NCBI GenBank assembly: GCA_049682815.1
Contig: JBAUII010000068.1
Location: forward strand, 4,738 to 68,737
DNA length: 64,000 nucleotides
Source of the DNA: Thermodesulfobacteriota bacterium
GTDB lineage: Bacteria; Desulfobacterota_D; UBA1144; Nemesobacterales; CSP1-2
Direction of reading: 5' to 3'
The notes beneath the pieces are model-generated. The model was not told the origin of the DNA and did no database searches. It saw nothing but the letters and a program-made list of their open reading frames with translations. This document shows positions 47,377 to 63,895 of the stretch, piece after piece; the first letter of the stretch is position 1; every line of letters begins with the position of its first letter. A program made the position numbers and the translations under genes.

Positions 47377-48729
<1,353 letters not shown>

Positions 48730-48751
48730 TCTTTCAGATTTAAATCTTAGG

Positions 48752-49639
48752 ATGAATAATCTTGTAGATTCATTTCTCTCTTATCAGGCCGCGGTAAAAG
48801 GGCTGTCAAAAAACACACTGGAATCATATGGAAGGGATGTCTTAAAATTTGTAGATTACCTCGAGAAGAGAAATATATCCGGGATCGAGGACGTTAAGTA
48901 CAATAACATTCTGGAATATGTGACTACTCTCCAGGAAGAACGTATCAATATCAGGTCGGTTGCACGTAATCTGGTTTCTCTTAAGCAGTTCTTTAAATTT
49001 TTACTTCTTGAGAAAATCATAGTCGAAGATCCCAGCCTTCACGTAAAAACACCAAAAATGAAGAGAAGCATTCCAGGCTTCCTATCATTAGAAGATGTGG
49101 AAAGGCTCCTCTCCTCGCCCAATCCGGCGTCATATGAAGGGATAAGAGACAGAGCTATGCTGGAGATACTATACGCCTGCGGCATCAGGGCATCAGAACT
49201 TGTGAATCTTGAACTCAATAGTGTAAACTTTGAGCTGGGTTACCTGATTGTATATGGCAAGGGTTCAAAGGAAAGATTGGTGCCAACGGGTGAGAAGGCC
49301 AGAACTGCCTTGAAAGATTACCTGGCTCTATCGAGACCAAATATTCTTAAAACAAGAAGCTCACCTTGCCTGTTTGTTACCAGACGCGGGGAAGGAATGA
49401 CTCGTCAGGGGTTTTGGAAGATTCTGAAAAACTACGCAATCAAGTGTGGTATAAGTAAGAAGATAAGCCCTCATACTATAAGGCATTCTTTTGCTACACA
49501 TTTGCTGGAGAGAGGGGCGGACCTGAGAACAATCCAGATCATGCTCGGACATTCTGATATTTCGACGACACAGATTTATACACATATCGCCAAAGAGAGA
49601 CTAAAGGAGATACATAGAAAGTATCACCCTAGATCTTGA
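48752..49639 (+). CDS. xerD: Tyrosine site-specific recombinase XerD/XerC
   Basis: R..HxxR...Y catalytic residues (HTIRHSFATHLL ... TQIYTH). Immediately upstream of scpA-scpB, as in the conserved xerD-scpA-scpB arrangement. Confidence 0.8.
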   Translation: MNNLVDSFLSYQAAVKGLSKNTLESYGRDVLKFVDYLEKRNISGIEDVKYNNILEYVTTLQEERINIRSVARNLVSLKQFFKFLLLEKIIVEDPSLHVKTPKMKRSIPGFLSLEDVERLLSSPNPASYEGIRDRAMLEILYACGIRASELVNLELNSVNFELGYLIVYGKGSKERLVPTGEKARTALKDYLALSRPNILKTRSSPCLFVTRRGEGMTRQGFWKILKNYAIKCGISKKISPHTIRHSFATHLLERGADLRTIQIMLGHSDISTTQIYTHIAKERLKEIHRKYHPRS

Positions 49640-49688
49640 ATGTGATTTTCTTTTTATCGTTATTATATACAGTAAATAGAACTTATAT

Positions 49689-50366
49689 ATGGATTTCAAC
49701 TATAAACTCATAATAATCCAGGCTCCTGTTATTCTATTCGCGCTCACGATTCATGAGTATTGCCATGGCCTGGTTGCCAATTATTTGGGAGACGATACTG
49801 CGCTCAAGCAGGGTCGGCTAACCCTGAATCCCATAGCTCACCTTGATGTAATTGGCACTATTCTCATGTTTCTGGTGGGTTTTGGGTGGGCGAAGCCTGT
49901 CCCCGTAAATCCGCTTAATTTTAAAGATCCCAAAAAGGGAATGCTTCTCGTCGCGCTAGCCGGTCCTGTTTCTAACCTTTTGACCGCCATTGTTGCAGGT
50001 ATAGTTCTTAGGAATCTAATTCCCAGTATCATAACGTCAGATCATGCGATATCGGGATTTTATTCGACGCTTCTCGTGGTGATGGTTCTTACCGTCATTT
50101 ATGGAGTGGGCCTTGCGATATTCAACATACTGCCAATACCCCCGCTTGACGGCTCGCGAGTGCTTTATGGACTTTTGCCTGAAAGACATGCATATGCCTA
50201 CAGCAGGTTTGAGCCTTACGGAGTAATGGTATTATTCGCCCTCTTTTTATTCGGCGGACGTATCTTTTCGGTCGTTATTTGGTATCCCGTTTCAATAATT
50301 ACGGAACTAATTTCAGGGGTGGGATATTTTCAACTTTGGCAAGTAATCCATTATATTACTGCATGA
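49689..50366 (+). CDS. Peptidase M50-family (site-2 protease-like) membrane zinc metalloprotease
   Basis: HEYCHG (HExxH) inside a TM helix, and multiple further TM segments. Confidence 0.7.
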   Translation: MDFNYKLIIIQAPVILFALTIHEYCHGLVANYLGDDTALKQGRLTLNPIAHLDVIGTILMFLVGFGWAKPVPVNPLNFKDPKKGMLLVALAGPVSNLLTAIVAGIVLRNLIPSIITSDHAISGFYSTLLVVMVLTVIYGVGLAIFNILPIPPLDGSRVLYGLLPERHAYAYSRFEPYGVMVLFALFLFGGRIFSVVIWYPVSIITELISGVGYFQLWQVIHYITA

Positions 50367-50408
50367 ACATCGGAGAAATCATATAATATAGACATCACGG
50401 AGGCATCG

Positions 50409-51164
50409 TTGACTTCGGACAGTTCTGAGACATGCTTGGTTAAGGTACAGGCTTTCGAGGGTCCCCTGGATCTCCTATTACACCTTATCAAAAAACACGA
50501 GATCAACATTTATGACATACCAGTGGCTTTAATCACACAGCAATATCTTGAATACCTGAACTTGATGAAAGAGTTGAATTTAGAGATCGTTGGAGACTAT
50601 TTGATAATCGCGGCGGAGCTCGGGCATATCAAATCAAAGATGCTGCTGCCAAAGTCTGATGACGATGATGAAATTGAAGAAGACGATCCCAGAGCCGATC
50701 TGGTAAGAAGGCTTATTGAGTACCAGATGTATCAAGAAGCGGCTGAGCAGTTGTCCAGGCTTGAAACCCTGGAAAGGGATGTGTTTACAAGATCGTACGA
50801 GGACGACACGGCTGATAACGCGAGTCAGCTATTGAAGGTTGATCTCTGGTCTTTAATCGATTCTTTAAGAGAGGTATTCAAGCGAAGAAATCTGAATATA
50901 TCGGAGGGAATACAATTTGATATTGAAACAGTAACACTGGACGAGAGGATTCGCGAGGTCAACTCTATACTTATTTCAAAAAAGGAAATGAAGTTTGAGG
51001 ACCTGTTTAGAAAAAATGCGTCAAGATTGGAGCTGATAATTACATTTCTCGCTATTTTAGAGCTTATAAGAACTCGTACAATAAGTGCATATCAGGAATA
51101 TCCGTTTGGACCGATAAAATTAGCCTACGAGGGAGAACCCATAAGTTGGAAAAACAATACTTAA
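50409..51164 (+). CDS. scpA: Segregation and condensation protein A
   Basis: FEGPLDLLLHLI N-terminal motif. An acidic central stretch. Confidence 0.85.
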   Translation: MTSDSSETCLVKVQAFEGPLDLLLHLIKKHEINIYDIPVALITQQYLEYLNLMKELNLEIVGDYLIIAAELGHIKSKMLLPKSDDDDEIEEDDPRADLVRRLIEYQMYQEAAEQLSRLETLERDVFTRSYEDDTADNASQLLKVDLWSLIDSLREVFKRRNLNISEGIQFDIETVTLDERIREVNSILISKKEMKFEDLFRKNASRLELIITFLAILELIRTRTISAYQEYPFGPIKLAYEGEPISWKNNT

Positions 51165-51706
51165 AAAAGGTGATTGAGTGCATCATCTTTGTTTCAGAAA
51201 AACCCCTTTCAATTCAGAGGCTTCTGAAGGTATTACCTGAAACAAAGAAAAGTGAAATTACTGAGTGTATCGAGGAATTGATAAGCGAATGGAATTCGCT
51301 GGATAGGGGATTTAGATTACATGAGGTTGCCAACGGTTATCAGTTTAGAACCAATTCGGAATTTAGTGATGAAATCATCCGTTTTAAAGCGATTAAGCCA
51401 TTCCGTCTGAGTCGTCCGGCTCTGGAGGCGCTCGCAATAATCGCCTATAATCAGCCCATCACAAGGCTTGAGGTCGATCAGATTAGGGGAGTCGATTCAA
51501 CAGGTGTCATAGGGGCTCTCTTGGAAAAACGCCTCATCGAAATCAGTGGTAGGAAGGAGGTGATCGGAAGACCATTCCTGTATGCAACCACCAGCGAATT
51601 TCTCGAGACCTTCGGACTCAAAAGCATGAGGGATCTCCCTAGCCTAAAGGAGCTAGAAGAGCTAGAGGCATCTTTTGAAAAACCGCTACAGGGACTCGAT
51701 GCGTGA
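51146..51706 (+). CDS. scpB: Segregation and condensation protein B
   Basis: Tandem winged-helix protein. Overlaps the scpA end. Confidence 0.85.
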   Translation: MEKQYLKKVIECIIFVSEKPLSIQRLLKVLPETKKSEITECIEELISEWNSLDRGFRLHEVANGYQFRTNSEFSDEIIRFKAIKPFRLSRPALEALAIIAYNQPITRLEVDQIRGVDSTGVIGALLEKRLIEISGRKEVIGRPFLYATTSEFLETFGLKSMRDLPSLKELEELEASFEKPLQGLDA

Positions 51707-52114
51707 CAGGATTTCTGATTCCTTTTCCCTCATTACCTTGGCTTCGTTTTTTTTCTTATGGTCATAGCCCAGCAGATGCAATATCCCATGTATCATCAAT
51801 TTGTGAATCTCATGTTCAATGCTTAGCTTCTGCAGCTTTGAACGTCTTATTGCCGTGTCAATCGAAATAATTACATCTCCAAGTATGGAATCATCGGGTC
51901 CATCCTGGGGAAAGGACAGGACATCGGTGGTCCGGTTTATGTTTCTATAATCCGCGTTCAGCTTCCGCATTTCCTCGTCGCCAACAAAAGCTACGCACAA
52001 CTCCTTATTTCCTGACACATTGAGTGTTTTAAGTATGAAAAGCGCCTTCCTTTTCAGGTTCTTCTTTTGCTCGCTCCTTAGGTAATTGACCCTGTCTAAT
52101 ATAGATAATGTCAT
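51686..52114 (-). CDS. ybeY: rRNA maturation endoribonuclease YbeY
   Basis: HGILHLLGYDH zinc motif. Confidence 0.85.
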   Translation of the reverse strand: MTLSILDRVNYLRSEQKKNLKRKALFILKTLNVSGNKELCVAFVGDEEMRKLNADYRNINRTTDVLSFPQDGPDDSILGDVIISIDTAIRRSKLQKLSIEHEIHKLMIHGILHLLGYDHKKKNEAKVMREKESEILSRIESL

Positions 52115-53116: not shown

Positions 53117-53359
53117 ATGAAGATCGTAAAAGCAACCGAAGCAAGAAACAATTTATACAGGTTGATTGACGAGGCTAGTGAATCCCATGAGCCGATTCAA
53201 ATATCCGGTAAGCGTTCGAATGCCGTTCTTATATCTGAAGAGGATTGGCGATCCATTCAAGAAACACTTAACTTGGTCTCTATACCAGGGATGAGGGAAT
53301 CAATAATTGAAGGACTTCAGACGCCGGTAGAGGAGTGCTCTGAGGAACCAGAGTGGTGA
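53117..53359 (+). CDS. Phd/YefM-family type II antitoxin
   Basis: The N-terminal (I/V)xAT(E/D)ARxNLxxL(I/L) motif, the approximately 80 aa size and an acidic C-terminus. Confidence 0.75.
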   Translation: MKIVKATEARNNLYRLIDEASESHEPIQISGKRSNAVLISEEDWRSIQETLNLVSIPGMRESIIEGLQTPVEECSEEPEW

Positions 53360-53703: not shown

Positions 53704-54298
53704 ATTCGCCCCCCCTACCCTCCATTCTCTTTCATCATTTGAATCTTGTCATGAGTCCTTTAAAATCCCGTCCCTTCACCCTGTCTGAGCCCTGAGCCTG
53801 TCGAACTATCGAATGGGGTCGAAGGATCGAACGCTGATCCGGGTTCTCCCCATACTCCGACAAGACCATATGAGGCCAAATGCGTGGAATGAGAAAAGGG
53901 CGTGACAAACAAATAAGCAAAGCCTGTGCACAACTTATTCAAATTACAACAATACAAGCCTGACCCGTAGCTCTAAGTAATTATGCAATATCTTATTATC
54001 TAAGTCTCCTCTATCCATTGGTTTGTTTTTAATTTGGTTCATTATTCCTAAAGATTTCATTGAGCGGATTATCATCCTAAGCTCTTCAGGCCAAGCTACA
54101 AAGAAATAGCCAAGCTATGATAACAGGGTGGCACTTATATTATCCTCGATGGTGGTCTGGCGAATATTGCATATTAAACGGCTTTTGTGTATAATCTTTA
54201 CCATATAAAACGAGTATGCACTATTTGTTTAAGACAAACTATAACACAAGAGATTTATTTATTAATATTCAAAAATATCTCTACAAGGGGGTTAATAA

Positions 54299-54677
54299 GA
54301 TGAGAATAAAATTCATATCTCCTAAGGCTGGATATGGGAAAGTAAAATGTACTGTGCACAAAAACGGTAAGTTAGGTTTTTCCCAAGCTGCCATTAAAAG
54401 ATTGAATGTAACCGACTCTAAACATTTCAAAATTGGTGTCAACGAAGAAGATAAGTCTGATGATAGCTTGTACCTTATGGTAACAGAGAATGAAGATAGA
54501 GATACATACAATGTAAATAAAGCCGGCAACTACTATTATCTGAATACTAGAAATTTGTTTGATGAACTAAACCTGAATTATAGAAACAAGCGTATTATAT
54601 ACGATATTGAAGAGATTGAATACGAGGGAACACGATTGTATAAATTAAATAAGAGGGAGTTGGACAGGAGTAAATAG
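54299..54677 (+). CDS. Hypothetical small protein (126 aa), first gene of the AT-rich island
   Basis: A strong RBS (AAGGGGG) lies 8 nt upstream of the ATG at 54299. There are no recognisable motifs. Composition is Lys/Asn/Tyr-rich. Confidence 0.5.
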
Positions 54678-54751
54678 AGGTGATAAATATAGCTTGAATA
54701 TCTATGCATTTATGTTAGATTTCTAAAACCTATTATGACGGAGGAAAAATT

Positions 54752-55897
54752 TTGCATAAATTAACATTTTATCCGCTTGGAAATGCAGATACCTGCAAGA
54801 TTGATCTTTCAGATGGACAAAAGCTTCTCTTTGACTATGCCCACTTGCGAGATAACGAGAATGAAGAAGATCTTCGAGCAGATCTGGAAAAATTGCTCCG
54901 AGAGGATTTAGAAGCAGCAGGACGTGATTATTTCGATGTTGTGGCATTTACGCATGCTGACACAGACCATATAAAACGTGCTTCTGAATTTTTTTTCTTA
55001 GAGCATGCTAGCAAATATCAGGGTGATGAACGTATTAAAATCAAGGAACTTTGGGTTCCTGCCGCTATGATAATCGAAGAAGGATTAAAAGATGATGCTA
55101 GAGTGTTGCGGAGTGAAGCTAGATATCGCCTAAAGAATGGTTTTGGCATAAGAGTTTTTTCTCGACCTGAAAGGCTAAAAGATTGGTTTGAAGAACAAGG
55201 TATAGCAGTAGAGGAGCGGAGTGGATTAATAACCAACGCTGGTCAAACGGTTCCAGGATTTAACAAAGATAGGGACGGAGTTGAGTTTTTTGTTCATTCG
55301 CCTTTTGCACTACGAGATGGTGAAGAATTAGAGGATCGTAATGAGAGTTCTTTAATACTCCATATAACACTCATTTGCAAGGGGAGGGAAACAAAATTTT
55401 TACTCATAGGAGACTCAACGCATGACGCTTTAGCTAATGTAGTGAATATTACAAAATATCACCATAGAGAAGAACGCTTGGAATGGGATATTTACGATAT
55501 ACCCCACCATTGTAGCTACTTAGCACTTAGCGATGAAAAAAGAGCGAAAAAAACTATACCTGCTCCAGAAGTTAAGTGGCTATTAGATCAAGGCAGTAAG
55601 AAGGGTGTTTTAGTATCTAGCAGCAATCCAATTCCAAATGATTATGAAAATCCTCAGCCCCCACATAAGCAGGCAGCAAGTTGTTACGAAGATATTGAGC
55701 AGGGTATAGATGGTAGATTTAAGGTAACGATGGAGCATCCGACTGTATCTAAACCAGAACCATTAGTTATTACCATTGACGAGTGGGGAGCTAAACCAAA
55801 GTTAATTATTTCGGGTGGTGGATCTGCAACTACAAGTCGTCCAGCACCAAGGGCTGGTATTTTGAATGACGCTAAATTATCTTCCAGTACTGGGTGA
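54752..55897 (+). CDS. Metallo-beta-lactamase-fold hydrolase, ComEC/Rec2-like variant (HxDxDH), with ~200-aa C-terminal extension ending in a disordered Gly/Ser/Thr-rich tail (...SGGGSATTSRPAPRAGILNDAKLSSSTG)
   Basis: N-terminal beta strand (KLTFYPLGNADTCKI), THADTDH metal motif, later GDSTHD and HHCSY. Paralogous in these motifs to 58267-59082. Its 3' end overlaps the next gene by 32 nt. Confidence 0.6.
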   Translation: MHKLTFYPLGNADTCKIDLSDGQKLLFDYAHLRDNENEEDLRADLEKLLREDLEAAGRDYFDVVAFTHADTDHIKRASEFFFLEHASKYQGDERIKIKELWVPAAMIIEEGLKDDARVLRSEARYRLKNGFGIRVFSRPERLKDWFEEQGIAVEERSGLITNAGQTVPGFNKDRDGVEFFVHSPFALRDGEELEDRNESSLILHITLICKGRETKFLLIGDSTHDALANVVNITKYHHREERLEWDIYDIPHHCSYLALSDEKRAKKTIPAPEVKWLLDQGSKKGVLVSSSNPIPNDYENPQPPHKQAASCYEDIEQGIDGRFKVTMEHPTVSKPEPLVITIDEWGAKPKLIISGGGSATTSRPAPRAGILNDAKLSSSTG

Positions 55898-58115
55898 TGT
55901 AATATCCAAAAGTGATCTTAGAATTTCTAAAGCCAAAGAGATTTCAGATGCTTTAGAAAAATTACCTTATTTCTCACTTATAGAACTAAGAAGAATAACA
56001 AATCCATATGAGGCGGAAGCGGTAATATTTGATACCGAGGTGGAAATTGGACAAAAAACTATCCATGATATTCGTAGTACGGAACGAATTGCAGTAATTT
56101 TTACTCCAGAAGATAAATTCGTTCCTGAGGTTCTTGGTCTCCGCCCAGATTTTCCTTTAGTCCCTCATTTGAACTTACGTCAACAAGAAAGGCCCCGAAG
56201 CCTTTGTCTATTCAGTGAGAAGTACAGTGAAGTGAAATTTCACTGGACACCAAAATACTTTTTGGAGCGCATCCGTGAATGGTTAGCTCTTAGCGCTAAG
56301 GGTGAACTTCATGGAGATGATCAACCTCTAGAACCATTATTAATAGGATCACCTATAAAACTAATATTTCCATTCGACCTATTTGATGGAAAAAATATTG
56401 ACGAACTTGAATTGATAATAATACGACGTGCCGATTATGGAAGTAACGGATCGACTCTAATTGCTAATCGACAGAAAGACACTCCGACGATTAATAAAGA
56501 AGAGATACGATTTATTGCATTTCCAATCCAGGGCAGGCCTCAAGCGCACGGAATAATTTATAATCAGCCCGCGAATTTGTCAGAGCTTCACGACTTTCTA
56601 GATAGAACAAAGATTGATTTATTGAATGAACTACGAGGCTTTTTGAGAAAGTTTCAAACAAGTCACCCTAATAGTAACTTAATTAGAGCTCACCTTATAT
56701 TGATTATTAATCTCCCTAAGACAAGACATAGTAGTGGTAAACCCGAATCATCAGATATGTGGGCTTTCTGGTTGGAAGACACAATAGAAGAACTAGGAAG
56801 GAAAATTGGAATCTGGGAGAAAAAGGCAGGAGGGTTAGGAATCTTAATACCTCCTGACTATTTTAAAAAGGGTGAAGATGTGAAAATACACATACTCGAT
56901 CCTACACCCTACTTATCACGAGAACTTGCTTCTAAGTTAAATGGATTAAACCGAATAGATGACAGACAATTTTGTCTTGTTGGAGTTGGAGCACTTGGTT
57001 CACAAGTATTGAATAATCTCGTTCGAATGGGTATTGGAAACTGGACAATCATTGATGAAGATTGTTTGCTTCCCCATAATCTTGCTCGTCATGCACTTAC
57101 AAGTATTCATTTGGGATATTCCAAAGCAGAAATGCTTGCGGCAGAAGCGAATGGAATGATAAAAGGTGAGCCAGTCGCAAGCTCCATTGTAACTGATGTT
57201 TTAAATCCCCTAGATTCATTTGAGAATCTAAATTCTGCTTTCAAAGAGGCTCGAGTTATTATAGATGCGTCTGCATCAATCCCAGTTGCTCGACATTTGG
57301 TTCGAGATATCAAATCCAGAGCTCGCCGCCTGTCTATATTTCTCAACCCATCAGGAAGTGATGTCGTTATTCTTGCAGAAGATGAAAAAAGAAAACTTCC
57401 CCTTGATTGTTTGGAAATGCAATATTATCGTTACGTGATAACTAAGCCTAAATTAAAAACTCATTTTCAAAGAAAGGTTGGCTCAGTTCGTTATGCTCGC
57501 TCATGCAGAGACATAAGTAGCACTATTCCACAAGACCTAGTTTCATTACATTCTTCCATATGTTGCCGAGGGATCCTCAGTTTGATTAAGCAGAAGAAGT
57601 CACGTATTTCGATATGGAAGGCTGACATTATTGATTTGACAGTGACGAAATACAACGTTCCAATTTATGAGATTATACAGAGGAAGCTTGGCCCCTGGAC
57701 CTTATGTTTCGATCAGTTTTTGTTAAATAAAATATCAGAATCACGGGAAGAAAAATTGCCAAACGAAACCGGAGGTGTTCTGATAGGATCTTACGACATG
57801 CAAAGAAAGATTGTTTACGTTGTGGATACTATTTTGTCACCTCCTGACAGTTTTGAATATCCGACCGCATATATAAGAGGGTGCAAAGGATTAAAAAAAC
57901 GTGTTGATGAAATTCAAGAAACAACTATAGGAATGTTGAATTATGTAGGAGAGTGGCATTCCCACCCATGTGGATTTAATACTAAACTTAGTGACGATGA
58001 TAAAAAATTGTTTAGCTGGCTGAAAGAAAATATGAATATAGAAGGATTACCTGCATTGATGCTGATTGCAGGAGATAAAGCAAAATACTCGTGGTACCTT
58101 GAGAACACTAGTTAA
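55866..58115 (+). CDS. E2-like / E1 (ThiF) / JAB (JAMM) triple-fusion protein of a ubiquitin-like conjugation-type defence module
   Basis: N-terminal region with the UBC-like motif FPLVPHLN...RSLCLF (HPN..C-like). Central ThiF/E1 Rossmann fold (LVGVGALGSQV...IIDEDCLLPHNLARH). C-terminal JAMM metalloprotease motif (E..GEWHSHP...LSDDD). Confidence 0.7.
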   Translation: MTLNYLPVLGDVISKSDLRISKAKEISDALEKLPYFSLIELRRITNPYEAEAVIFDTEVEIGQKTIHDIRSTERIAVIFTPEDKFVPEVLGLRPDFPLVPHLNLRQQERPRSLCLFSEKYSEVKFHWTPKYFLERIREWLALSAKGELHGDDQPLEPLLIGSPIKLIFPFDLFDGKNIDELELIIIRRADYGSNGSTLIANRQKDTPTINKEEIRFIAFPIQGRPQAHGIIYNQPANLSELHDFLDRTKIDLLNELRGFLRKFQTSHPNSNLIRAHLILIINLPKTRHSSGKPESSDMWAFWLEDTIEELGRKIGIWEKKAGGLGILIPPDYFKKGEDVKIHILDPTPYLSRELASKLNGLNRIDDRQFCLVGVGALGSQVLNNLVRMGIGNWTIIDEDCLLPHNLARHALTSIHLGYSKAEMLAAEANGMIKGEPVASSIVTDVLNPLDSFENLNSAFKEARVIIDASASIPVARHLVRDIKSRARRLSIFLNPSGSDVVILAEDEKRKLPLDCLEMQYYRYVITKPKLKTHFQRKVGSVRYARSCRDISSTIPQDLVSLHSSICCRGILSLIKQKKSRISIWKADIIDLTVTKYNVPIYEIIQRKLGPWTLCFDQFLLNKISESREEKLPNETGGVLIGSYDMQRKIVYVVDTILSPPDSFEYPTAYIRGCKGLKKRVDEIQETTIGMLNYVGEWHSHPCGFNTKLSDDDKKLFSWLKENMNIEGLPALMLIAGDKAKYSWYLENTS

Positions 58116-58266
58116 TTTATCACCTATCATGATAAAGGAAACTCTGAAATTTTGATTTATAGGTGAAACTTGAAAAAAGGATTTGAATTCTTTTTTGTAA
58201 GTTACCAGTAATACTGTGATTACAAAAAAATGAGCATATATGATAATGAACTAAGGAGAATTAGAA

Positions 58267-59082
58267 GTGGAAGTGCATTTTATAGATGTAGGTTGTGGAA
58301 ACATGGTATTAATTGTTCTCCCAGAAGGATCGGTGTTAATTTACGATTGTAATATAACAAATGATAATACAGGGAGGGTTCTTTTATACTTATATAGAAT
58401 CATAGATAATAAATCTATAGATGTCTTTATTAATTCGCATAGAGATGCTGATCATATGAGAGGAATAAAAAAGCTACATGCTGCCAACACAATCAAAGCG
58501 ATTTGGGATACGGGAGTACCTGGAACCACTACTTATTCACCAGAATACAGGGAATATATGGATCTTCGTAGATCGCTTCCTTCAAAAGAGATTGAACCAA
58601 GGAAATACTGGACATATGGAGATGCCAAGCTAAGATGTATGAATTCAAAATGGGAGGACTTCTCTGAGCCAAATGAACAAAGTGTGGTATTGAAAATTGA
58701 GTATAAAGGGTCGTCGGTTATGCTCAGCGGAGATACGAACTATAGACCATGGAAAGAGAAACTTCTTACTTTTTATAAAAACGGTGACCTCGGGTCCGAC
58801 ATTTTGCTTGCTGCTCATCATGGTTCATTATCGTTCTTTGATGATCCATCAAATTCCCAAAATTATTACACCAACCATATTAGAAAAATAAATCCAGCAA
58901 TGACTCTGATATCTGTTGGGCCAAATAATTATGACCTTCCAAATAAGAAAGCCGTTGAGCTCTATGAGAAATTTTCACGAGGTTCCGAGAAAGGAAATAA
59001 AGTTTTCACAACAGAAAATAAAGGTACTATGAAGTTGGTAATGAAAGAAGCGGGAGGCTGGACATTATATAGCAATCAATAA
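58267..59082 (+). CDS. Metallo-beta-lactamase-fold hydrolase, ComEC/Rec2-like variant (HxDxDH, HHGS)
   Basis: VHFIDVGCGNMVLI beta-strand start, SHRDADHMRG, SGDT, AAHHGS. These are the hallmarks of the ComEC-type lactamase_B subfamily. Confidence 0.7.
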   Translation: MEVHFIDVGCGNMVLIVLPEGSVLIYDCNITNDNTGRVLLYLYRIIDNKSIDVFINSHRDADHMRGIKKLHAANTIKAIWDTGVPGTTTYSPEYREYMDLRRSLPSKEIEPRKYWTYGDAKLRCMNSKWEDFSEPNEQSVVLKIEYKGSSVMLSGDTNYRPWKEKLLTFYKNGDLGSDILLAAHHGSLSFFDDPSNSQNYYTNHIRKINPAMTLISVGPNNYDLPNKKAVELYEKFSRGSEKGNKVFTTENKGTMKLVMKEAGGWTLYSNQ

Positions 59083-59084
59083 AA

Positions 59085-59783
59085 ATGGACAAATTAAGTT
59101 ACTATGATGTATTATCAAACCTTCTTCCTGGGCTAGTGTTTGTTTGGGCCTTGGGAGTGCTTGGACCATTCACAAAAGGTACAATCCAGCTTCTTTTAAC
59201 TGGTAATACTATCGTCGATTCGATAATTTTTGTCGCACTAGGTTATGTTGCTGGCCATATTTTACAGTTTATATCGAGATATTCTATAGAACAAATTTTG
59301 AAGAGAATATTTTGGAAAGGAAATTTCTTTTCAGATATTTTTCTAGTATCGGCATTTAAGCAATGTCCCCAAGTTGAATTACGCCGTTATATAGCCATTG
59401 CTGAAAATAAGCTTGGCTTCTCCCGTGATGATTTGGGAGTTTTGTGTGATCCAGATGTTACATCAAATCAATCCAAGAAAGAAAAAGCGATTTCACTCTC
59501 AAGAGCAATTTATCGTGCTATTGATGCAAAGACAAGCGGCTTATCACGTGCACATAAAGCACATATTCAGAATACATTCTATTCATTATTCAGAAATCTT
59601 TCGGTAGTTTTTCTGATACTAGGACTGTCTGATTTGTTAGCAATAATCTTACATTTTGTACCACTAAGTAAAAAGATGACGTTTCTCATAGTAGTTAACT
59701 TTGCAATCTCGGTAATTTTTTTTATTAGAGCAAAACAACGTGGCGAATTATATGTAAGAAGTTTATTTTGGAGCTATATTTGA
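59085..59783 (+). CDS. Hypothetical integral membrane protein (about 4-5 TM helices)
   Basis: Hydrophobic helices at the N- and C-termini. Starts 3 nt after the preceding stop. Confidence 0.45.
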   Translation: MDKLSYYDVLSNLLPGLVFVWALGVLGPFTKGTIQLLLTGNTIVDSIIFVALGYVAGHILQFISRYSIEQILKRIFWKGNFFSDIFLVSAFKQCPQVELRRYIAIAENKLGFSRDDLGVLCDPDVTSNQSKKEKAISLSRAIYRAIDAKTSGLSRAHKAHIQNTFYSLFRNLSVVFLILGLSDLLAIILHFVPLSKKMTFLIVVNFAISVIFFIRAKQRGELYVRSLFWSYI

Positions 59784-59873
59784 GAATTATGGAAGTTCTT
59801 GAAAAAAGCTGAACGGGAACTTGTTCTATAAAAAAATAAAACGGAATTTAATCCCATAAGGAGGCCTAAAATA

Positions 59874-60125
59874 ATGCCATCAAAAAGAGATAATTATCGA
59901 TATGAACTCCGCGATAAGGGTTCATTAGTTTATGTGGGGATTACAAATGATCCTGAAAAGAGGGAGCAGGAGCATAAGGGTGAAAGAAAAAGATTCACTA
60001 GTATGAACATTATTACGCCCCCTGTTACACAAGATTCAGCTGAGAGATGGGAAGAAAAAAGGCTGGAAACATACCGCACAAATCATCAAGGGAAAAACCC
60101 CCGATATAACAAGACGGGAATATAA
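59874..60125 (+). CDS. Small GIY-YIG-like domain protein
   Basis: YRYEL...LVYVGITNDPEKREQEH matches the GIY-(10-11)-YIG..R..E/H N-terminal motif. An RBS (GGAGG) lies upstream. Confidence 0.5.
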   Translation: MPSKRDNYRYELRDKGSLVYVGITNDPEKREQEHKGERKRFTSMNIITPPVTQDSAERWEEKRLETYRTNHQGKNPRYNKTGI

Positions 60126-60215: not shown

Positions 60216-63173
60216 CTAAGTCTTTGCCAATTCTTGATAAACCATCTCAAACATCTTCGCCACCAGCGCTGCTCTTATTGCCTTGTTGTCATTAACCTTC
60301 TTATAGAAGTCGAAGTGCTCGTCAATTATCTCTTGGAGCTTCTCATCAAAGAGATGGTCGAATGTTAGCCTTATTTTTTCCTTGCTATTTACCTTTGCGC
60401 TTGCCTTCAGCGATGGATTGCTCTCAATTCTTGATTGCAGTTGTTGAGCAATTACTTTATCTGATTCTGTAAAGTCAGTGCCATACTTGTCGTTTATTGA
60501 TTCAATTATCTTAGATAGGGCCTCTTTCTCTTTGCTCTTTAATGTTATCGCATCATATCTAGCTGGCCTAATCGAACCTCCGCGATCTCGGATTTCAATA
60601 CCCGTGCCCAGGTGCCCTATTCTGTAAGAATCCATATCAACCTGTTCCATGACCTCCACGGGCAGCCTATCATCGATTCGTGGCAACTTCCTTATCAGCA
60701 TCTTGCTGAAAACATATAGCTTTTCCAGATTAATATCTTTGAAGGGTATTATCTGAGATAAAAAGGCGTATAGGCGAATATAATTCCTTAGAAGTTTCTT
60801 GAACTCCTCCTGCTTCTCGGTTGGTAACTCCTCAAATCGTGAGACAACTTCATTAAGTATGGGATGCAGTTTATCTTGCTTCACTTTCTTATCGAAGAAG
60901 AGTTTTGCAAATCCATCCACATCTTCATGACTGAATACATACTGGTCCAGGAGCTTATGCTGAAAGTCATACAACTTGTTTGGATCAGTGCCTTCAGAAA
61001 GTATTGTTTCTCCATAATAATCCTCAAAGGCTTTTTCTATTTCATCCGCTTCATTAGCAAAATCCAGAATTAAGGGGTCTTCTTTATTGGAATAAATTCT
61101 GTTGACTCTGCTCAACGTTTGTACTGCTGCTACGTTTGCCAATTTCTTGTCCACATACATTGCATAAAGCAGGGGCTGGTCAAATCCTGTCTGGAATTTA
61201 TTTGCAACTATCAGAAATTTATTTCCCGCTCTTTTGAATTCATCCGCAGTCTGCTTTTCTGAGAAGCCATTCATGCCTGCTTCCGTAAAATCAAGGCCGC
61301 TGTCTGGATCATGAACTGTTCCTGAGAAGGCAACCAGGGTCTTGAACTTGTACCCCTTCTTCTTGATATATTTATCGCACGCAAGCTTAAACCTTACCGC
61401 GTGAAGCCTTGACCTCGTGACAATCATTGCCTTAGCTTGCCCGTTACCATTTTTGTCTGGAATCTTGTTTTTAACATGGTCATTGAAGTGCTCTATCATG
61501 ATTTCCACTTTCTTGTTGATTGAGTGCTCATGCAGGTCGACAAATGACCTTAGAAGAGCGGTTGCTTTTCTCTTGTCATAATTGGGGTCATCCTCAATTT
61601 TTTTAAGCAAATTGAAGTAGGTTTTGTAAGTTGTGTAGTTTTTTAACACGTCCCGAATAAAGGCTTCTTCAATTGCCTGCCTCATCGTGTAGAGGTGGAA
61701 TGGAAGGTATGAGCCGTCTTCTTGTTTTTCTCCAAATAATTCAAAAGTCTTTCCTTTGGGTGTTGCCGTGAATGCGAAATAGCTTACATTTTTCAACCTG
61801 CCTCTTGCATCTATTTCTTTCGTAATTTCATCTTCCCAGGTTACTTCCTCTATGTCTTTTTCCTCGGCTTCTTCAAGGCCTGAGACAGATAAAACCATTT
61901 TCAGGCTTTTGCTCGTCTCTCCTGATTGTGAGGAGTGAGCCTCATCAACAACAATGGCAAATTTCTTGCCAGGAAGCTTCGTTATATCATCAACGATGTA
62001 GGGAAATTTTTGGATTGTGGTTACAATAATTTTCTTGCCGCTCTCCAATGCTTCCTTTAGCTTCTTAGAGCCCTTGTCAATTTTTTCGACAACTCCGCTC
62101 ACCTGCGCAAACTGGTGGACTGTCCTTTGAAGCTGCCTGTCTAGTACAAGCCTGTCAGTAACAACTATTATTGAGTCAAATATTACCTTGTCTTTCTTGT
62201 CATGTAAGCTCGTTAGGTTATGACAAAGCCACGCTATCGTATTGCTTTTGCCGCTTCCCGCGCTGTGCTGGATAAGGTAGCTTTTGCCTAGATTATCTTT
62301 CTTGGCCGCTTCTACTAATTGCCTTACGGCATCTAGTTGATGGTATCTTGGGAAGATTAATTTCTGCTCTCCTGTTGGCTTTCCCTTTTCGTCCAGCACA
62401 TCTTCTATATGAAGAAAGTCCTTTATTATCTCTGAGAGTATTTCCTTAGTGAGGATTTCCTTCCACAAATATTCTGTTTTAAATCCTGCTGTATCAGGAT
62501 TTCCAGCGCCTCCATCCCGTCCCTTATTGAATGGCAGGAACTTTGTCTTTCCATTCTCCAGCTTGGTTGTCATGTAAACAAGGTCTTCATCTACGGCAAA
62601 GTAGACAAGATTCCTCTTAAAGGCAAAGTAAGGCTCTCTTGAGTCCCTGTCATACTTGAACTGCTTTATCGCATGCTCGACACTCTGCCCCGAAAGCTGG
62701 TCTTTAAGCTCAATTGTTATAATTGGAAGGCCATTAATAAAGAGCACCATATCAACAGATTTGTTGTTTCTCTCGCTGAAATAAACCTGCCGCATGACGC
62801 GGAACATATTTGCCTGAAAGAGTTTTTGGTAAGCTACGTTGAGCGTGGAAGCCGGCAAAGGATAGAATAAGTCGAAGTAGCAGCCGTAATCCCTTACACC
62901 CTTCCTCAAAACATCCAAGGTGCCTCTTTTCCCAATCTCATCTGCTAACCTCTTAAGGAACTTCTCTTGAACCTGGGAGCCATGCTGTTTCTTTAGCTTT
63001 CCCCACTCATCAGGCTGGGTTGCATAGATAAAAGCCAAAACCAGCTCAGTGTCCAAAGAAAGCTTTTTGTCATAATCGGTATTGTTTCTTGAAATGTATG
63101 CGTTCTTCCTTACAAGCCAGTCCTCTGTCTGCTCCTCCATCCTCATTTCTGAAGTTTTTAATTTAACAGCCAT
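60216..63173 (-). CDS. hsdR: Type I restriction enzyme R subunit (HsdR)
   Basis: N-terminal nuclease/PD-(D/E)xK region. SF2 helicase motifs: Walker A (QHSAGSGKS), DEAH box (VVDEAH), motif VI. About 985 aa. Confidence 0.85.
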   Translation of the reverse strand: MAVKLKTSEMRMEEQTEDWLVRKNAYISRNNTDYDKKLSLDTELVLAFIYATQPDEWGKLKKQHGSQVQEKFLKRLADEIGKRGTLDVLRKGVRDYGCYFDLFYPLPASTLNVAYQKLFQANMFRVMRQVYFSERNNKSVDMVLFINGLPIITIELKDQLSGQSVEHAIKQFKYDRDSREPYFAFKRNLVYFAVDEDLVYMTTKLENGKTKFLPFNKGRDGGAGNPDTAGFKTEYLWKEILTKEILSEIIKDFLHIEDVLDEKGKPTGEQKLIFPRYHQLDAVRQLVEAAKKDNLGKSYLIQHSAGSGKSNTIAWLCHNLTSLHDKKDKVIFDSIIVVTDRLVLDRQLQRTVHQFAQVSGVVEKIDKGSKKLKEALESGKKIIVTTIQKFPYIVDDITKLPGKKFAIVVDEAHSSQSGETSKSLKMVLSVSGLEEAEEKDIEEVTWEDEITKEIDARGRLKNVSYFAFTATPKGKTFELFGEKQEDGSYLPFHLYTMRQAIEEAFIRDVLKNYTTYKTYFNLLKKIEDDPNYDKRKATALLRSFVDLHEHSINKKVEIMIEHFNDHVKNKIPDKNGNGQAKAMIVTRSRLHAVRFKLACDKYIKKKGYKFKTLVAFSGTVHDPDSGLDFTEAGMNGFSEKQTADEFKRAGNKFLIVANKFQTGFDQPLLYAMYVDKKLANVAAVQTLSRVNRIYSNKEDPLILDFANEADEIEKAFEDYYGETILSEGTDPNKLYDFQHKLLDQYVFSHEDVDGFAKLFFDKKVKQDKLHPILNEVVSRFEELPTEKQEEFKKLLRNYIRLYAFLSQIIPFKDINLEKLYVFSKMLIRKLPRIDDRLPVEVMEQVDMDSYRIGHLGTGIEIRDRGGSIRPARYDAITLKSKEKEALSKIIESINDKYGTDFTESDKVIAQQLQSRIESNPSLKASAKVNSKEKIRLTFDHLFDEKLQEIIDEHFDFYKKVNDNKAIRAALVAKMFEMVYQELAKT

Positions 63174-63895
63174 TACACAACGCCCCGTACATCAATCTTT
63201 CCAGTCACCGCATGCGAAATCAAGGACGTTTTGTATTCATTCAAGAGGTCTATTTGTTTGTTTATTTTTTCCATTAGGTTGTCGATTCTTGAAGTTTCAG
63301 TTTTTAAATACTCTAAAATCTTTTCCTGCTCATCAACAGGCGGTAAAGGTAACAATACATTTTTCATATTGTCTTGATAGATTACCTCAATTGTTGTAGC
63401 GCAACTCATTATCAAAAGTTGCTCCCAGATTAATTTTGCTTGCTCGATTATCAGTGTTAAATACTCCTTAAGAATCCTTTCCTTATTAACTTGAATCCTT
63501 AGTAAACACGGATGTAAAATACCTTTTTCAGCATTCTCAGCGACAATGAACGTTTGGCCTATAGAACCTCTGGTTGTTATTAGAATGTCGCCAGGTTCTA
63601 CCTCAAAAGCTTTAAGTTCCGAATATTTTTCGTAAGAAACGTAATTCTCACCATGAGTAATATCCTTAAGAAGTACAGTTTCTTGATTGTATACTTTAAC
63701 ATCACCCAATTCCATATCGCTGGCTTTTAACTGGCTACCGAATGGACCTGTTTTGATTGCACCCTTTTTATTATCAACGCAATATTTAAGTTTCTTAAAA
63801 TCCCAATGAAACGGAATTGTTTCAATTAGTTCACTTCCGGAATCCTTCATCTTTACATCAGGGTCTAAACCCTTCGTCACAACATGGCTTATCAA
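63173..63895 (-). CDS. hsdS: Type I restriction-modification specificity subunit (HsdS), one target-recognition domain plus conserved coiled-coil; the gene probably continues beyond the window end
   Basis: HsdS-like TRD and a conserved central/C-terminal helix (LPPVDEQEKI...). The sequence at 63940-64000 repeats the conserved-helix-coding motif seen at 63240-63300, which suggests a second half. Confidence 0.7.
   Translation of the reverse strand: MISHVVTKGLDPDVKMKDSGSELIETIPFHWDFKKLKYCVDNKKGAIKTGPFGSQLKASDMELGDVKVYNQETVLLKDITHGENYVSYEKYSELKAFEVEPGDILITTRGSIGQTFIVAENAEKGILHPCLLRIQVNKERILKEYLTLIIEQAKLIWEQLLIMSCATTIEVIYQDNMKNVLLPLPPVDEQEKILEYLKTETSRIDNLMEKINKQIDLLNEYKTSLISHAVTGKIDVRGVV

What the first reader, a model, noticed from the sequence alone, without database searches (positions are those of the whole stretch)
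54752..55897. MBL-fold hydrolase with Gly-terminated disordered tail, coupled to the E2-E1-JAB gene: candidate conjugation substrate/effector
The gene immediately upstream of the E1 fusion ends in a low-complexity tail (SGGGSATTSRPAPRAGILNDAKLSSSTG-stop). Its last 32 nt overlap the start of the fusion gene. In CBASS the E1-E2 protein adenylates and conjugates the flexible C-terminus of the partner enzyme (CD-NTase), which ends in Gly/Ala. By analogy, this ComEC-type metallo-beta-lactamase (a likely nuclease/phosphodiesterase, motifs HADTDH, HHCSY) could be the protein whose C-terminus is activated and attached to targets. That would be a nuclease effector primed by ubiquitin-like transfer rather than by a nucleotide signal.
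Basis: inference. Interest (0 to 1): 0.75.

Follow-up and report, generated by a model that had tools for sequence, protein, structure and literature searches.

The report
Known 6A-MBL anti-phage gene pair
This is an ordinary member of the already described "6A-MBL" bacterial anti-phage system, a metal-dependent hydrolase next to a fused E2-E1-JAB ubiquitin-type enzyme; the glycine likely to be attached to targets lies in a conserved P-R-A-G motif 12 residues before the end of the protein, not at its last residue.

Summary
A 381-aa MBL-fold protein (54752..55897) overlaps by 32 nt a 749-aa E2-E1-JAB fusion (55866..58115).

The pair is not new. Both proteins score far above the curated cut-offs of the NCBIfam equivalogs "anti-phage 6A-MBL system MBL-fold protein" (406 bits, cut-off 220) and "6A-MBL system cap2_3 protein" (660 bits, cut-off 320). 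This is operon type 6a of Iyer, Burroughs and Aravind (2006). Later papers list it as a validated Pseudomonas phage defence, and one preprint already groups it with Type II CBASS as a conjugation pathway.

The substrate idea is supported, but on a different residue:
- The terminal G381 is not conserved.
- The conserved feature is P-R-A-G (P366–G369). It is found in 75 of 77 complete species-level relatives, with all synonymous codons in use.
- 41 of the 72 matching the stricter P/T/A/R–R/K–x–G form end exactly at that Gly. The others carry unconserved extensions of 1–13 residues (12 here).
- The tail is low-confidence in AlphaFold2.
- cap2_3 lies directly downstream in 75 of 76 assessable loci. 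Its E2 Cys, E1 Cys and JAB motif are invariant.
- Relatives without cap2_3 lack the tail.

Most likely the JAB domain trims the extension, and E1/E2 then activate and transfer G369. Conjugation itself was not shown here.

The parts
54752..55897 (+). 6A-MBL enzyme gene (381 aa plus stop): MBL-fold metallo-hydrolase of ComEC type
   Evidence: ORF. NCBIfam NF058524.1 '6A-MBL_enzyme', 405.7 bits against a cut-off of 220, covering residues 6-346. AF2 mean pLDDT 88.5. Best PDB match is the ComEC MBL domain 9ic4, E = 3.7e-14. Metal-site residues H68, D72, H73, H182, D221, H252 and H253 are invariant.
55802..55858 (+). Flexible C-terminal linker and tail (residues 351-369, ISGGGSATTSRPAPRAG)
   Evidence: pLDDT below 50 for residues 353-364. 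Linker residues vary among relatives while the end of the tail is conserved.
55847..55858 (+). Conserved P-R-A-G motif (P366-G369). G369 is the predicted mature C-terminus and the residue activated by E1.
   Evidence: P366, R367 and G369 are at least 90% conserved in A1. Among the 72 species-level relatives matching the P/T/A/R–R/K–x–G form, the positions read P 65, R 71, A 64 and G 72; 41 end exactly at this G. All synonymous codons are used. tblastn matches to relatives mostly stop at query residue 369.
55859..55894 (+). Unconserved 12-residue extension (ILNDAKLSSSTG) after the conserved Gly. Predicted propeptide to be removed, probably by the JAB domain. It overlaps the start of cap2_3.
   Evidence: Extensions of 0-13 residues without sequence conservation occur in relatives. 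pLDDT below 50 for residues 373-381. The Gly codon lies 7 nt from the cap2_3 ATG, matching the modal spacing of 7-8 nt in relatives.
55866..58115 (+). cap2_3 gene: E2-E1-JAB triple-module protein (749 aa)
   Evidence: NCBIfam NF058523.1 '6A-MBL_cap2_3', 659.5 bits against a cut-off of 320. Pfam domains. Best solved relatives are CBASS Cap2 chains 7tsq, 7tsx and 7to3. A homologue lies directly downstream of the MBL gene in 75 of 76 assessable genome loci.
56019..56378 (+). E2 (UBC-like) domain, residues 52-171, with invariant H101 and catalytic C114 (codon 56205..56207)
   Evidence: Prok-E2_A, 1.4e-22. H101 and C114 are invariant in 68 of 68 sequences.
56934..57506 (+). E1 adenylation domain (ThiF-like, residues 357-482) through the invariant cysteine C547 (codon 57504..57506)
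   Evidence: ThiF, 1.7e-15. G373, G375, G378, R408, K420, D467 and C547 are invariant or nearly so in 68 sequences. Aligns to the Cap2 adenylation domain.
57720..58076 (+). JAB/JAMM peptidase domain (residues 619-737), Cap3-like
   Evidence: Prok-JAB, 4.5e-09. PADLOC JAB, 1.8e-24. NCBIfam Cap3, 1.8e-08. E634, H698, H700, S709 and D712 are conserved in 66-68 of 68 sequences.
58267..59783 (+). Neighbouring two-gene module, probably a separate system: a small ComEC-like MBL (271 aa, 58267..59082) and a 4-TM Csx27-like protein (232 aa, 59085..59783)
   Evidence: PADLOC PDC-M48B and PDC-M48A/Csx27 hits. Pfam Lactamase_B. The same pair is found beside 6A-MBL in L001, L030, L032 and L066.

Best explanation
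The two overlapping genes form a 6A-MBL anti-phage system (operon type 6a). It sits in a low-GC defence island of a Thermodesulfobacteriota genome.

The 381-aa protein is a soluble metallo-hydrolase of ComEC type, probably a nuclease or phosphodiesterase. Its catalytic domain ends near residue 350 and is followed by a flexible tail.

The tail carries the family's conserved P-R-A-G motif, and G369 is the functional C-terminus. In this genome the reading frame runs 12 codons past G369 into the start of cap2_3, so the primary product is a precursor.

Proposed mechanism (inferred, not shown here):
1. The JAB domain of Cap2_3 cuts after G369. Cap3 is known to cut after the C-terminal Gly of cGAS.
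2. The E1 domain adenylates the G369 carboxylate and takes it as a thioester on C547.
3. The thioester passes to the E2 cysteine C114.
4. The MBL enzyme is attached to a target amine, which primes or localises the hydrolase. This parallels the way Cap2 primes the CD-NTase in Type II CBASS.
5. The JAB domain also reverses conjugation.

Because no second-messenger enzyme or separate effector is present, the MBL enzyme itself would deliver the antiviral activity.
For: Identity of the system:
- The NCBIfam equivalogs for both proteins are passed with wide margins.
- The Pfam E2, ThiF and JAB architecture is present.
- The operon type is described by Iyer et al. 2006.
- '6A-MBL' is cited as an experimentally confirmed Pseudomonas defence and is listed among jumbo-phage defences.
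- A 2024 preprint states that MBL pathways use the fused E2-E1 protein to conjugate their enzyme.

Tail as substrate:
- [RK]xG lies near the C-terminus in 75 of 77 complete relatives, one per species. Among the 72 that match the stricter P/T/A/R–R/K–x–G form, 41 end exactly at the Gly.
- 118 of 120 close relatives carry the motif. It persists as R-x-G down to about 31% identity.
- All synonymous codons are used for P, R, A and G, so selection acts on the protein.
- The tail has low confidence in AF2.

Machinery:
- cap2_3 is directly downstream in 75 of 76 assessable loci.
- C114, C547, the GxGxxG motif, D467 and the JAMM motif are invariant.

Negative controls:
- MBL relatives fused to an AGS-C domain have no cap2_3 neighbour and no tail.
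- L057 has no cap2_3 and no motif.

Precedent:
- The C-terminal Gly/Ala of cGAS is conserved only in operons with Cap2 and Cap3.
- Cap2 forms a thioester with that residue.
- Cap3 cuts precisely after it in a linear fusion (Jenson et al. 2023).

Fold:
- The ComEC MBL domain is the best structural match.
Against: - No conjugate, thioester or processing event was observed. All mechanistic steps are inferred from conservation and from the CBASS analogy.
- I could not read the primary paper on 6A-MBL (van den Berg et al. 2024). I do not know which of these steps it tested.
- The substrate of the MBL domain is unknown. The second-best structural matches are a phosphorylcholine esterase and other phosphodiesterases.
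- A 12-residue extension is at the long end of the observed range of 0-13. This copy might therefore be poorly processed or inactive.
- No complex model was possible with the tools, so docking of the tail in the E1 pocket is untested.
Confidence: 0.7

Rival explanations
1. The tail is a tether or regulatory peptide rather than a transferred moiety. Cap2_3 adenylates or thioesterifies G369 and holds the MBL enzyme in a covalent, inactive (or active) complex with itself. There is no transfer to third-party targets, and JAB cleavage releases the enzyme on infection.
For: The same conservation data fit this reading. The targets of CBASS and MBL conjugation are described as unknown. The E2, E1 and JAB modules are fused in one polypeptide, which would suit reactions within a complex.
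Against: The E2 cysteine C114 and H101 are invariant. That would be unnecessary if the reaction stopped at the E1 thioester. In CBASS, conjugates to many proteins are seen and depend on both the E1 and E2 activities.
Confidence: 0.15
2. One reading: the terminal Gly of the encoded protein (G381) is the residue that is activated and conjugated, without processing.
For: The ORF does end in Gly. CD-NTases end in Gly or Ala.
Against: Residues 370-381 have no counterpart in most relatives. 41 of the 72 motif-matching species-level relatives stop at the PRAG glycine, and the extensions vary in length (1-13 residues) and in sequence, ending in any residue. The extension coincides with read-through into the cap2_3 start.
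Confidence: 0.04
3. The MBL protein is not the substrate. Cap2_3 acts on another protein or ubiquitin-like protein encoded elsewhere, and the tail is conserved for some other reason, such as oligomerisation or translational coupling with cap2_3.
For: No direct evidence of conjugation was obtained here. The Gly codon sits 7-8 nt from the cap2_3 start in most loci, so a nucleotide-level constraint was conceivable.
Against: Codons for P, R, A and G are fully degenerate across relatives; Arg alone appears as AGG 21, CGG 15, CGC 12, AGA 11, CGT 10 and CGA 5. This excludes a ribosome-binding-site constraint. No beta-grasp or other conserved third gene accompanies the pair: the upstream 153-aa ORF has no homologue in 83 related loci, and Iyer et al. 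describe a two-gene operon. Tail loss goes with absence of cap2_3.
Confidence: 0.08

Closest known systems
6A-MBL anti-phage system (operon type 6a of Iyer, Burroughs and Aravind 2006; NCBIfam NF058524.1 and NF058523.1)
   Same: A two-gene unit. [quoted passage not shown] Both proteins pass the curated equivalog cut-offs, and the architecture is as described.
   Different: Nothing essential differs. This copy comes from an uncultured Thermodesulfobacteriota genome, where its protein is labelled 'hypothetical'. It has an unusually long 12-residue extension after the conserved Gly. It is followed by a PDC-M48-like TM + MBL pair.
Type II CBASS (CD-NTase + Cap2 + Cap3 + effector)
   Same: A Cap2-like E2-E1 protein and a Cap3-like JAB peptidase. 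The partner enzyme has a flexible tail carrying a conserved Gly, and that conservation is seen only when Cap2 and Cap3 are present. The likely logic, priming of an immune enzyme by ubiquitin-like conjugation, is also shared.
   Different: There is no CD-NTase, no cyclic-nucleotide signal and no separate nucleotide-activated effector. E2-E1 and JAB are fused into one protein. The conjugated enzyme is a hydrolase. The tail motif is a defined P-R-A-G, and it is often followed by a removable extension.
ComEC C-terminal MBL (beta-lactamase-like) nuclease domain
   Same: Best structural match (9ic4). Shared variant metal motif HxDxDH and PHH motif.
   Different: The protein is soluble, with no competence channel or transmembrane part. 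It has about 85 extra residues (a helical insertion around 105-160 and a C-terminal subdomain at 290-350) plus the conjugation tail. Sequence identity is only 16%.
MBL effector modules of other defence systems (Avs1a, MBL-type LmuA of Lamassu, DRT-associated RTasMBL)
   Same: Weak but significant profile matches over the N-terminal and central MBL motifs. This indicates one clade of defence-associated MBL hydrolases.
   Different: Scores are far below family cut-offs (Avs1a 28.7 bits against 420). Those proteins are controlled by STAND, SMC-like or reverse-transcriptase partners, not by an E1/E2 enzyme.
Bil and Bub bacterial ubiquitination-like pathways
   Same: E1, E2 and JAB chemistry. In Bub, JAB-type cleavage of a precursor exposes the reactive C-terminus.
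   Different: Those pathways transfer a dedicated beta-grasp ubiquitin-like protein. Here no such protein exists, and the enzyme itself carries the reactive tail.

Membership tests
6A-MBL anti-phage system (type 6a operon) | [quoted passage not shown] | tested here: met
   Pfam Prok-E2_A 52-171, ThiF 357-482 and Prok-JAB 619-737. NF058523.1, 659.5 bits against a cut-off of 320.
6A-MBL anti-phage system (type 6a operon) | Adjacent gene encoding the specialised MBL-fold protein of this family | tested here: met
   NF058524.1, 405.7 bits against a cut-off of 220. The genes overlap by 32 nt on the same strand.
6A-MBL anti-phage system (type 6a operon) | Catalytic residues of the MBL, E2, E1 and JAB modules intact | tested here: met
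   MBL H68, D72, H73, H182, D221, H252 and H253 are invariant. Cap2_3 H101, C114, GxGxxG, D467, C547, E634, H698, H700, S709 and D712 are conserved and present in the window protein.
6A-MBL anti-phage system (type 6a operon) | Protection against phage infection | not testable with these tools
   Known only second-hand from papers citing van den Berg et al. 2024. The primary paper is not held.
Type II CBASS | CD-NTase (cGAS/DncV-like nucleotidyltransferase) in the operon | tested here: not met
   No such domain in the ORFs between 53117 and 60125.
Type II CBASS | Cap2-type E2-E1 protein and Cap3-type JAB peptidase | tested here: met
   Best PDB relatives are Cap2 chains. PADLOC E1-E2 and JAB models, and the NCBIfam Cap3 model, match. 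Here the two are fused.
Type II CBASS | Nucleotide-activated effector (CapV, Cap4, Cap5 and similar) | tested here: not met
   None found next to the pair.
Type II CBASS | Partner enzyme with a conserved C-terminal Gly/Ala on a flexible tail, conserved only when Cap2 and Cap3 are present | tested here: met
   G369 in the PRAG motif. The tail is disordered. It is absent from relatives without cap2_3. The difference is that a variable extension often follows the Gly.
ComEC-type MBL nucleases | MBL fold with the HxDxDH and PHH metal motifs, closest to the ComEC C-terminal domain | tested here: met
   Foldseek 9ic4, E = 3.7e-14, TM (target) 0.66. Motif alignment.
ComEC-type MBL nucleases | Part of a membrane DNA-uptake channel protein (competence domain) | tested here: not met
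   No Competence or transmembrane region. The AF2 model is a soluble globular domain plus tail.
ComEC-type MBL nucleases | Metal-dependent DNase activity | not testable with these tools
   Inferred from the fold only.
Ubiquitin-like modifier proteins (beta-grasp Ubl) | Beta-grasp fold | tested here: not met
   The AF2 model is an MBL alpha-beta/beta-alpha sandwich with a small C-terminal beta subdomain. All PDB matches are MBL proteins.
Ubiquitin-like modifier proteins (beta-grasp Ubl) | Exposed C-terminal Gly, often made by peptidase removal of a short extension | tested here: inconclusive
   A conserved Gly with 0-13 residue extensions is seen. Processing itself is not observable.
PDC-M48 candidate defence system (neighbouring genes 58267..59783) | TM protein (A) plus MBL protein (B) as a gene pair | tested here: met
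   PADLOC PDC-M48B at 8.3e-12 and PDC-M48A at 1.8e-05, with Csx27 at 4.8e-12. Four predicted TM segments.

The most novel reading that the evidence does not exclude
In nearly half of 6A-MBL systems, this one included, the hydrolase is made as a pro-enzyme whose reactive glycine is capped by a short, unconserved extension. Removal of the cap would then be an obligatory licensing step before conjugation; it could be done by the fused JAB domain or conceivably by a phage protease. In addition, this MBL clade swaps the same two regulatory modules as CD-NTases: a Cap2/Cap3 tail or an AGS-C domain. That would make it the sensor-regulated enzyme of a signal-free, CBASS-like immune pathway. It may sometimes work together with the adjacent 4-TM + small-MBL pair.
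Probability: 0.25. Interest if true: 0.55.

Novelty: new member of a known kind. Interest (0 to 1): 0.3.

Why it matters
For the genome scan, this finding can be closed as an ordinary 6A-MBL defence system inside a defence island. It is not a new class.

For people who work on bacterial ubiquitin-like immunity, the comparative data give concrete targets. I could not find these details in the literature available to me.
- The reactive residue should be the Gly of a P-R-A-G motif.
- About 45% of family members carry a C-terminal extension that must be removed.
- Relatives that lack the E2-E1-JAB partner replace the tail with an AGS-C domain, just as CD-NTases do.

These points make the conjugation model directly testable by mutagenesis and mass spectrometry.

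Tried and rejected
1. Terminal G381 as the reactive residue. Rejected because it is not conserved.
2. Conservation of PRAG caused by the cap2_3 ribosome-binding site or by translational coupling. Rejected because synonymous codons are fully degenerate.
3. A hidden ubiquitin-like or third gene. The upstream 153-aa ORF (54216..54677) has no Pfam, NCBIfam or PADLOC hit and no homologue in 83 related loci.
4. A tRNA or structured RNA marking an integration site near the island. None found.
5. The primary literature on 6A-MBL. Van den Berg et al. 2024, Ledvina et al. 2023 and Burroughs et al. 2009 are not held. Several text searches for a mechanistic paper on MBL conjugation returned nothing relevant.
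6. Direct Pfam assignment of the MBL protein. No hit at E <= 0.01. The fold was established by NCBIfam, PADLOC, AF2 and Foldseek instead.
7. A model of the tail bound to E1. Not possible, because the structure tool takes single chains from the window only.
8. P0193, an apparent MBL-JAB fusion. On reading the sequence it looks like an internal deletion joining the MBL protein to the C-terminal part of cap2_3, not a designed fusion.
Full report
**1. The observation**

The ORF 54752..55897 (+ strand, TTG start, 381 aa) is real. It ends in ...ISGGGSATTSRPAPRAGILNDAKLSSSTG-stop. A GGAGG box precedes the TTG, and the N-terminus MHKLTFYPLGNAD matches the family consensus MHKxTFYPLGNAD, so the start is sound.

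It carries Prok-E2_A (residues 52-171), ThiF (357-482) and Prok-JAB (619-737).

The motifs HADTDH and HHCSY are present and belong to an invariant metal-site set: H68, D72, H73, H182, D221, H252 and H253.

**2. What the pair is**

Pfam gives no hit for the 381-aa protein. NCBIfam does:
- NF058524.1, "anti-phage 6A-MBL system MBL-fold protein": 405.7 bits against a cut-off of 220.
- NF058523.1, "anti-phage 6A-MBL system cap2_3 protein", for the downstream gene: 659.5 bits against a cut-off of 320.

This is operon type 6a of Iyer, Burroughs and Aravind (2006). [quoted passage not shown]

Later papers cite van den Berg et al. 2024 for experimental confirmation of "6A-MBL" as a Pseudomonas aeruginosa phage defence (PMC13276650). 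They also list it among jumbo-phage defences (10.1101/2025.09.30.679545).

I could not obtain the primary 2024 paper, so I do not know how much of the mechanism was tested.

**3. The fold**

With a 66-sequence alignment, AlphaFold2 gives mean pLDDT 88.5 and pTM 0.88. The domain is globular to about residue 350. Confidence is low for residues 353-364 and 373-381, and also for a surface loop at 186-196.

The best solved match is the beta-lactamase-like domain of ComEC (9ic4, E = 3.7e-14). Next come phosphorylcholine esterase Pce and other MBL phosphodiesterases and nucleases. A profile search of PDB sequences finds only that ComEC domain, aligning HxDxDH and PHH.

PADLOC shows weak matches to the MBL effectors Avs1a, MBL-type LmuA and RTasMBL. 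"ComEC-type MBL, likely nuclease or phosphodiesterase" is a fair inference. The substrate is unknown.

**4. The tail**

In 120 close relatives (56-69% identity), 118 have an [RK]xG motif in the last 20 residues and 103 have exact PRAG. Random 20-mers of the family's composition give 14% and 0.02%.

In 80 loci from a collection with one genome per species, 77 encode a complete protein. Of these:
- 75 have the motif. The 72 that match the stricter P/T/A/R–R/K–x–G form supply the two counts below.
- 41 of those 72 end exactly at its glycine.
- 31 of those 72 continue for 1-8 more residues with no conserved sequence.

tblastn matches typically stop at query residue 369. In cluster representatives down to about 31% identity the motif survives as PR[AVFMYH]G or RxG, at or near the end.

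In the window protein the motif is P366-R367-A368-G369 (55847..55858). The 12 residues ILNDAKLSSSTG that follow are an extension, and the terminal G381 is incidental.

The motif is under selection at the protein level. Arg is encoded by AGG, CGG, CGC, AGA, CGT and CGA (21, 15, 12, 11, 10 and 5 times), and Pro, Ala and Gly each use all four codons.

The Gly codon lies a modal 7-8 nt from the cap2_3 start (7 nt here). The extension is best read as the frame running past the usual stop position into the neighbouring gene.

**5. The partner**

A cap2_3 homologue lies immediately downstream on the same strand in 75 of the 76 loci that have enough sequence to judge.

An alignment of 68 such proteins shows the following residues invariant or nearly so:
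- E2: H101 and C114.
- E1 adenylation site: G373, G375, G378, R408, K420 and D467.
- E1 cysteine: C547.
- JAMM motif: E634, H698, H700, S709 and D712.

The closest solved relatives are CBASS Cap2 structures.

**6. Controls**

- Relatives of the MBL enzyme of about 500 aa (P0134, P0140 and others) replace the tail with an AGS-C domain (PF18134). This is the same module found at the C-terminus of CBASS cyclases (PADLOC Cyclase, 6e-39). They have no cap2_3 neighbour.
- Locus L057 has an MBL relative with no PRAG tail. It is followed by a SEC-C-motif protein and has no cap2_3.
- This mirrors the CBASS finding that the C-terminal Gly/Ala of cGAS is conserved only in operons with Cap2 and Cap3 (Jenson et al. 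2023).

**7. Mechanism**

What is shown here:
- The identity of the system.
- The intact active sites.
- The conserved, disordered Gly tail, and its dependence on cap2_3.

What is inferred:
1. JAB trims residues 370-381. Cap3 cuts precisely after the cGAS C-terminal Gly in a linear fusion, and JAB processing of precursors is documented for Bub.
2. E1 adenylates G369 and forms a thioester on C547.
3. The thioester passes to C114.
4. The MBL enzyme is attached to unknown targets, which primes it.
5. JAB also reverses conjugation.

Since the operon has neither a nucleotide cyclase nor a separate effector, the MBL hydrolase itself would deliver the antiviral activity.

Rivals:
- A covalent tether that stops at the E1 thioester. 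This is less likely, because the E2 Cys and His are invariant.
- Conjugation through G381. Rejected.
- A different, unlinked substrate. Unlikely given the controls and the two-gene operon.

**8. Context**

GC content falls from 0.42-0.44 in the housekeeping genes to 0.34-0.39 across 54000-60000. The pair is flanked as follows:
- Upstream: a Phd/YefM antitoxin gene.
- Downstream: a PDC-M48-like pair (small ComEC-like MBL plus a 4-TM Csx27-like protein), then a short GIY-YIG ORF, then a 985-aa and a 240-aa ORF on the minus strand that look like type I restriction HsdR and HsdS. That last assignment is my reading of the translations and was not tested.

No tRNA or Rfam family lies nearby. This is a defence island. 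The identical protein is in NCBI as "hypothetical protein" from a Thermodesulfobacteriota MAG.

**9. Verdict**

Novelty: a new member of a known kind. Interest is modest (0.3).

The parts I could not find in the accessible literature, and which are readily testable, are:
- the precise P-R-A-G motif;
- the frequent removable extension;
- the tail/AGS-C module swap.

Noticed in passing
window 58267..59783; also L001 4961..6539, L032 9522..11111, L030 2124..3724 (- strand), L066 9412..11104: The pair just downstream of cap2_3 is a small ComEC-like MBL of 271 aa plus a 232-aa protein with 2+2 TM helices (PADLOC PDC-M48B and PDC-M48A/Csx27-like). The same pair recurs next to 6A-MBL in four distant lineages: Falkowbacteria, two Dehalococcoidia and Latescibacterota. 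The MBL is 45-55% identical, the TM topology is the same, and the gene order varies. Weaker MBL271 matches occur in eight more of the 80 loci. This could be co-travelling defence systems or a functional four-gene variant.
   Followed up: partly
P0134, P0140, P0176, P0177; loci L081-L083: Relatives of the 6A-MBL enzyme of about 500 aa carry a C-terminal AGS-C domain (PF18134) in place of the PRAG tail. This is the domain found at the C-terminus of CBASS and Pycsar cyclases. These relatives have no cap2_3 neighbour; one sits beside BrxL. The MBL clade and the CD-NTases thus seem to share two interchangeable regulatory modules.
   Followed up: partly
L057 5941..8036; P0186: An MBL relative without the PRAG tail is followed by a 327-aa protein with a SEC-C motif, and no cap2_3 is present. 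P0186 (660 aa) is an MBL fused to a region with a SEC-C motif. This may be a third regulatory arrangement of the same hydrolase.
   Followed up: partly
P0193 (442 aa, metagenomic): The MBL C-terminal half is joined directly to the last ~150 residues (JAB domain) of a cap2_3 protein. It looks like an internal deletion that removed the tail, E2 and E1, that is, a decayed copy.
   Followed up: partly
window 55307..55342 (MBL residues 186-197): A low-confidence, acidic surface loop (ALRDGEELEDRN) lies between the invariant H182-S-P-F185 and N197. A 2026 preprint reports that phage prohead proteases activate CD-NTases by cutting an exposed loop. Whether this loop plays such a role is pure speculation.
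   Followed up: no
window 54216..54677 (+): A 153-aa ORF lies directly upstream of the MBL gene, in the lowest-GC stretch (0.34). It has no Pfam, NCBIfam or PADLOC hit and no homologue in 83 related loci. It is not part of the conserved system, and its function is unknown.
   Followed up: partly
window 53117..53359 and 59874..60125: A Phd/YefM antitoxin gene (80 aa) has no obvious toxin ORF of at least 60 aa immediately after it. An 83-aa ORF with only the N-terminal half of a GIY-YIG domain also flanks the island; it may be a remnant.
   Followed up: no
window 54000..60000: GC content drops to 0.34-0.39, against 0.42-0.44 in the neighbouring housekeeping genes (AhcY-, XerD-, ScpA/B- and YbeY-like ORFs at 47470..52114). 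This is consistent with a horizontally acquired defence island that continues into type I restriction genes on the minus strand (60216..63895).
   Followed up: partly
L056 and L021: Two loci with a cap2_3 neighbour have aberrant MBL tails. In L056 the match stops at residue 338 and an unrelated 41-residue tail follows. L021 ends ...ITRPHRERARDGCELL. These are probably frameshifts or decay rather than true exceptions to the motif.
   Followed up: no
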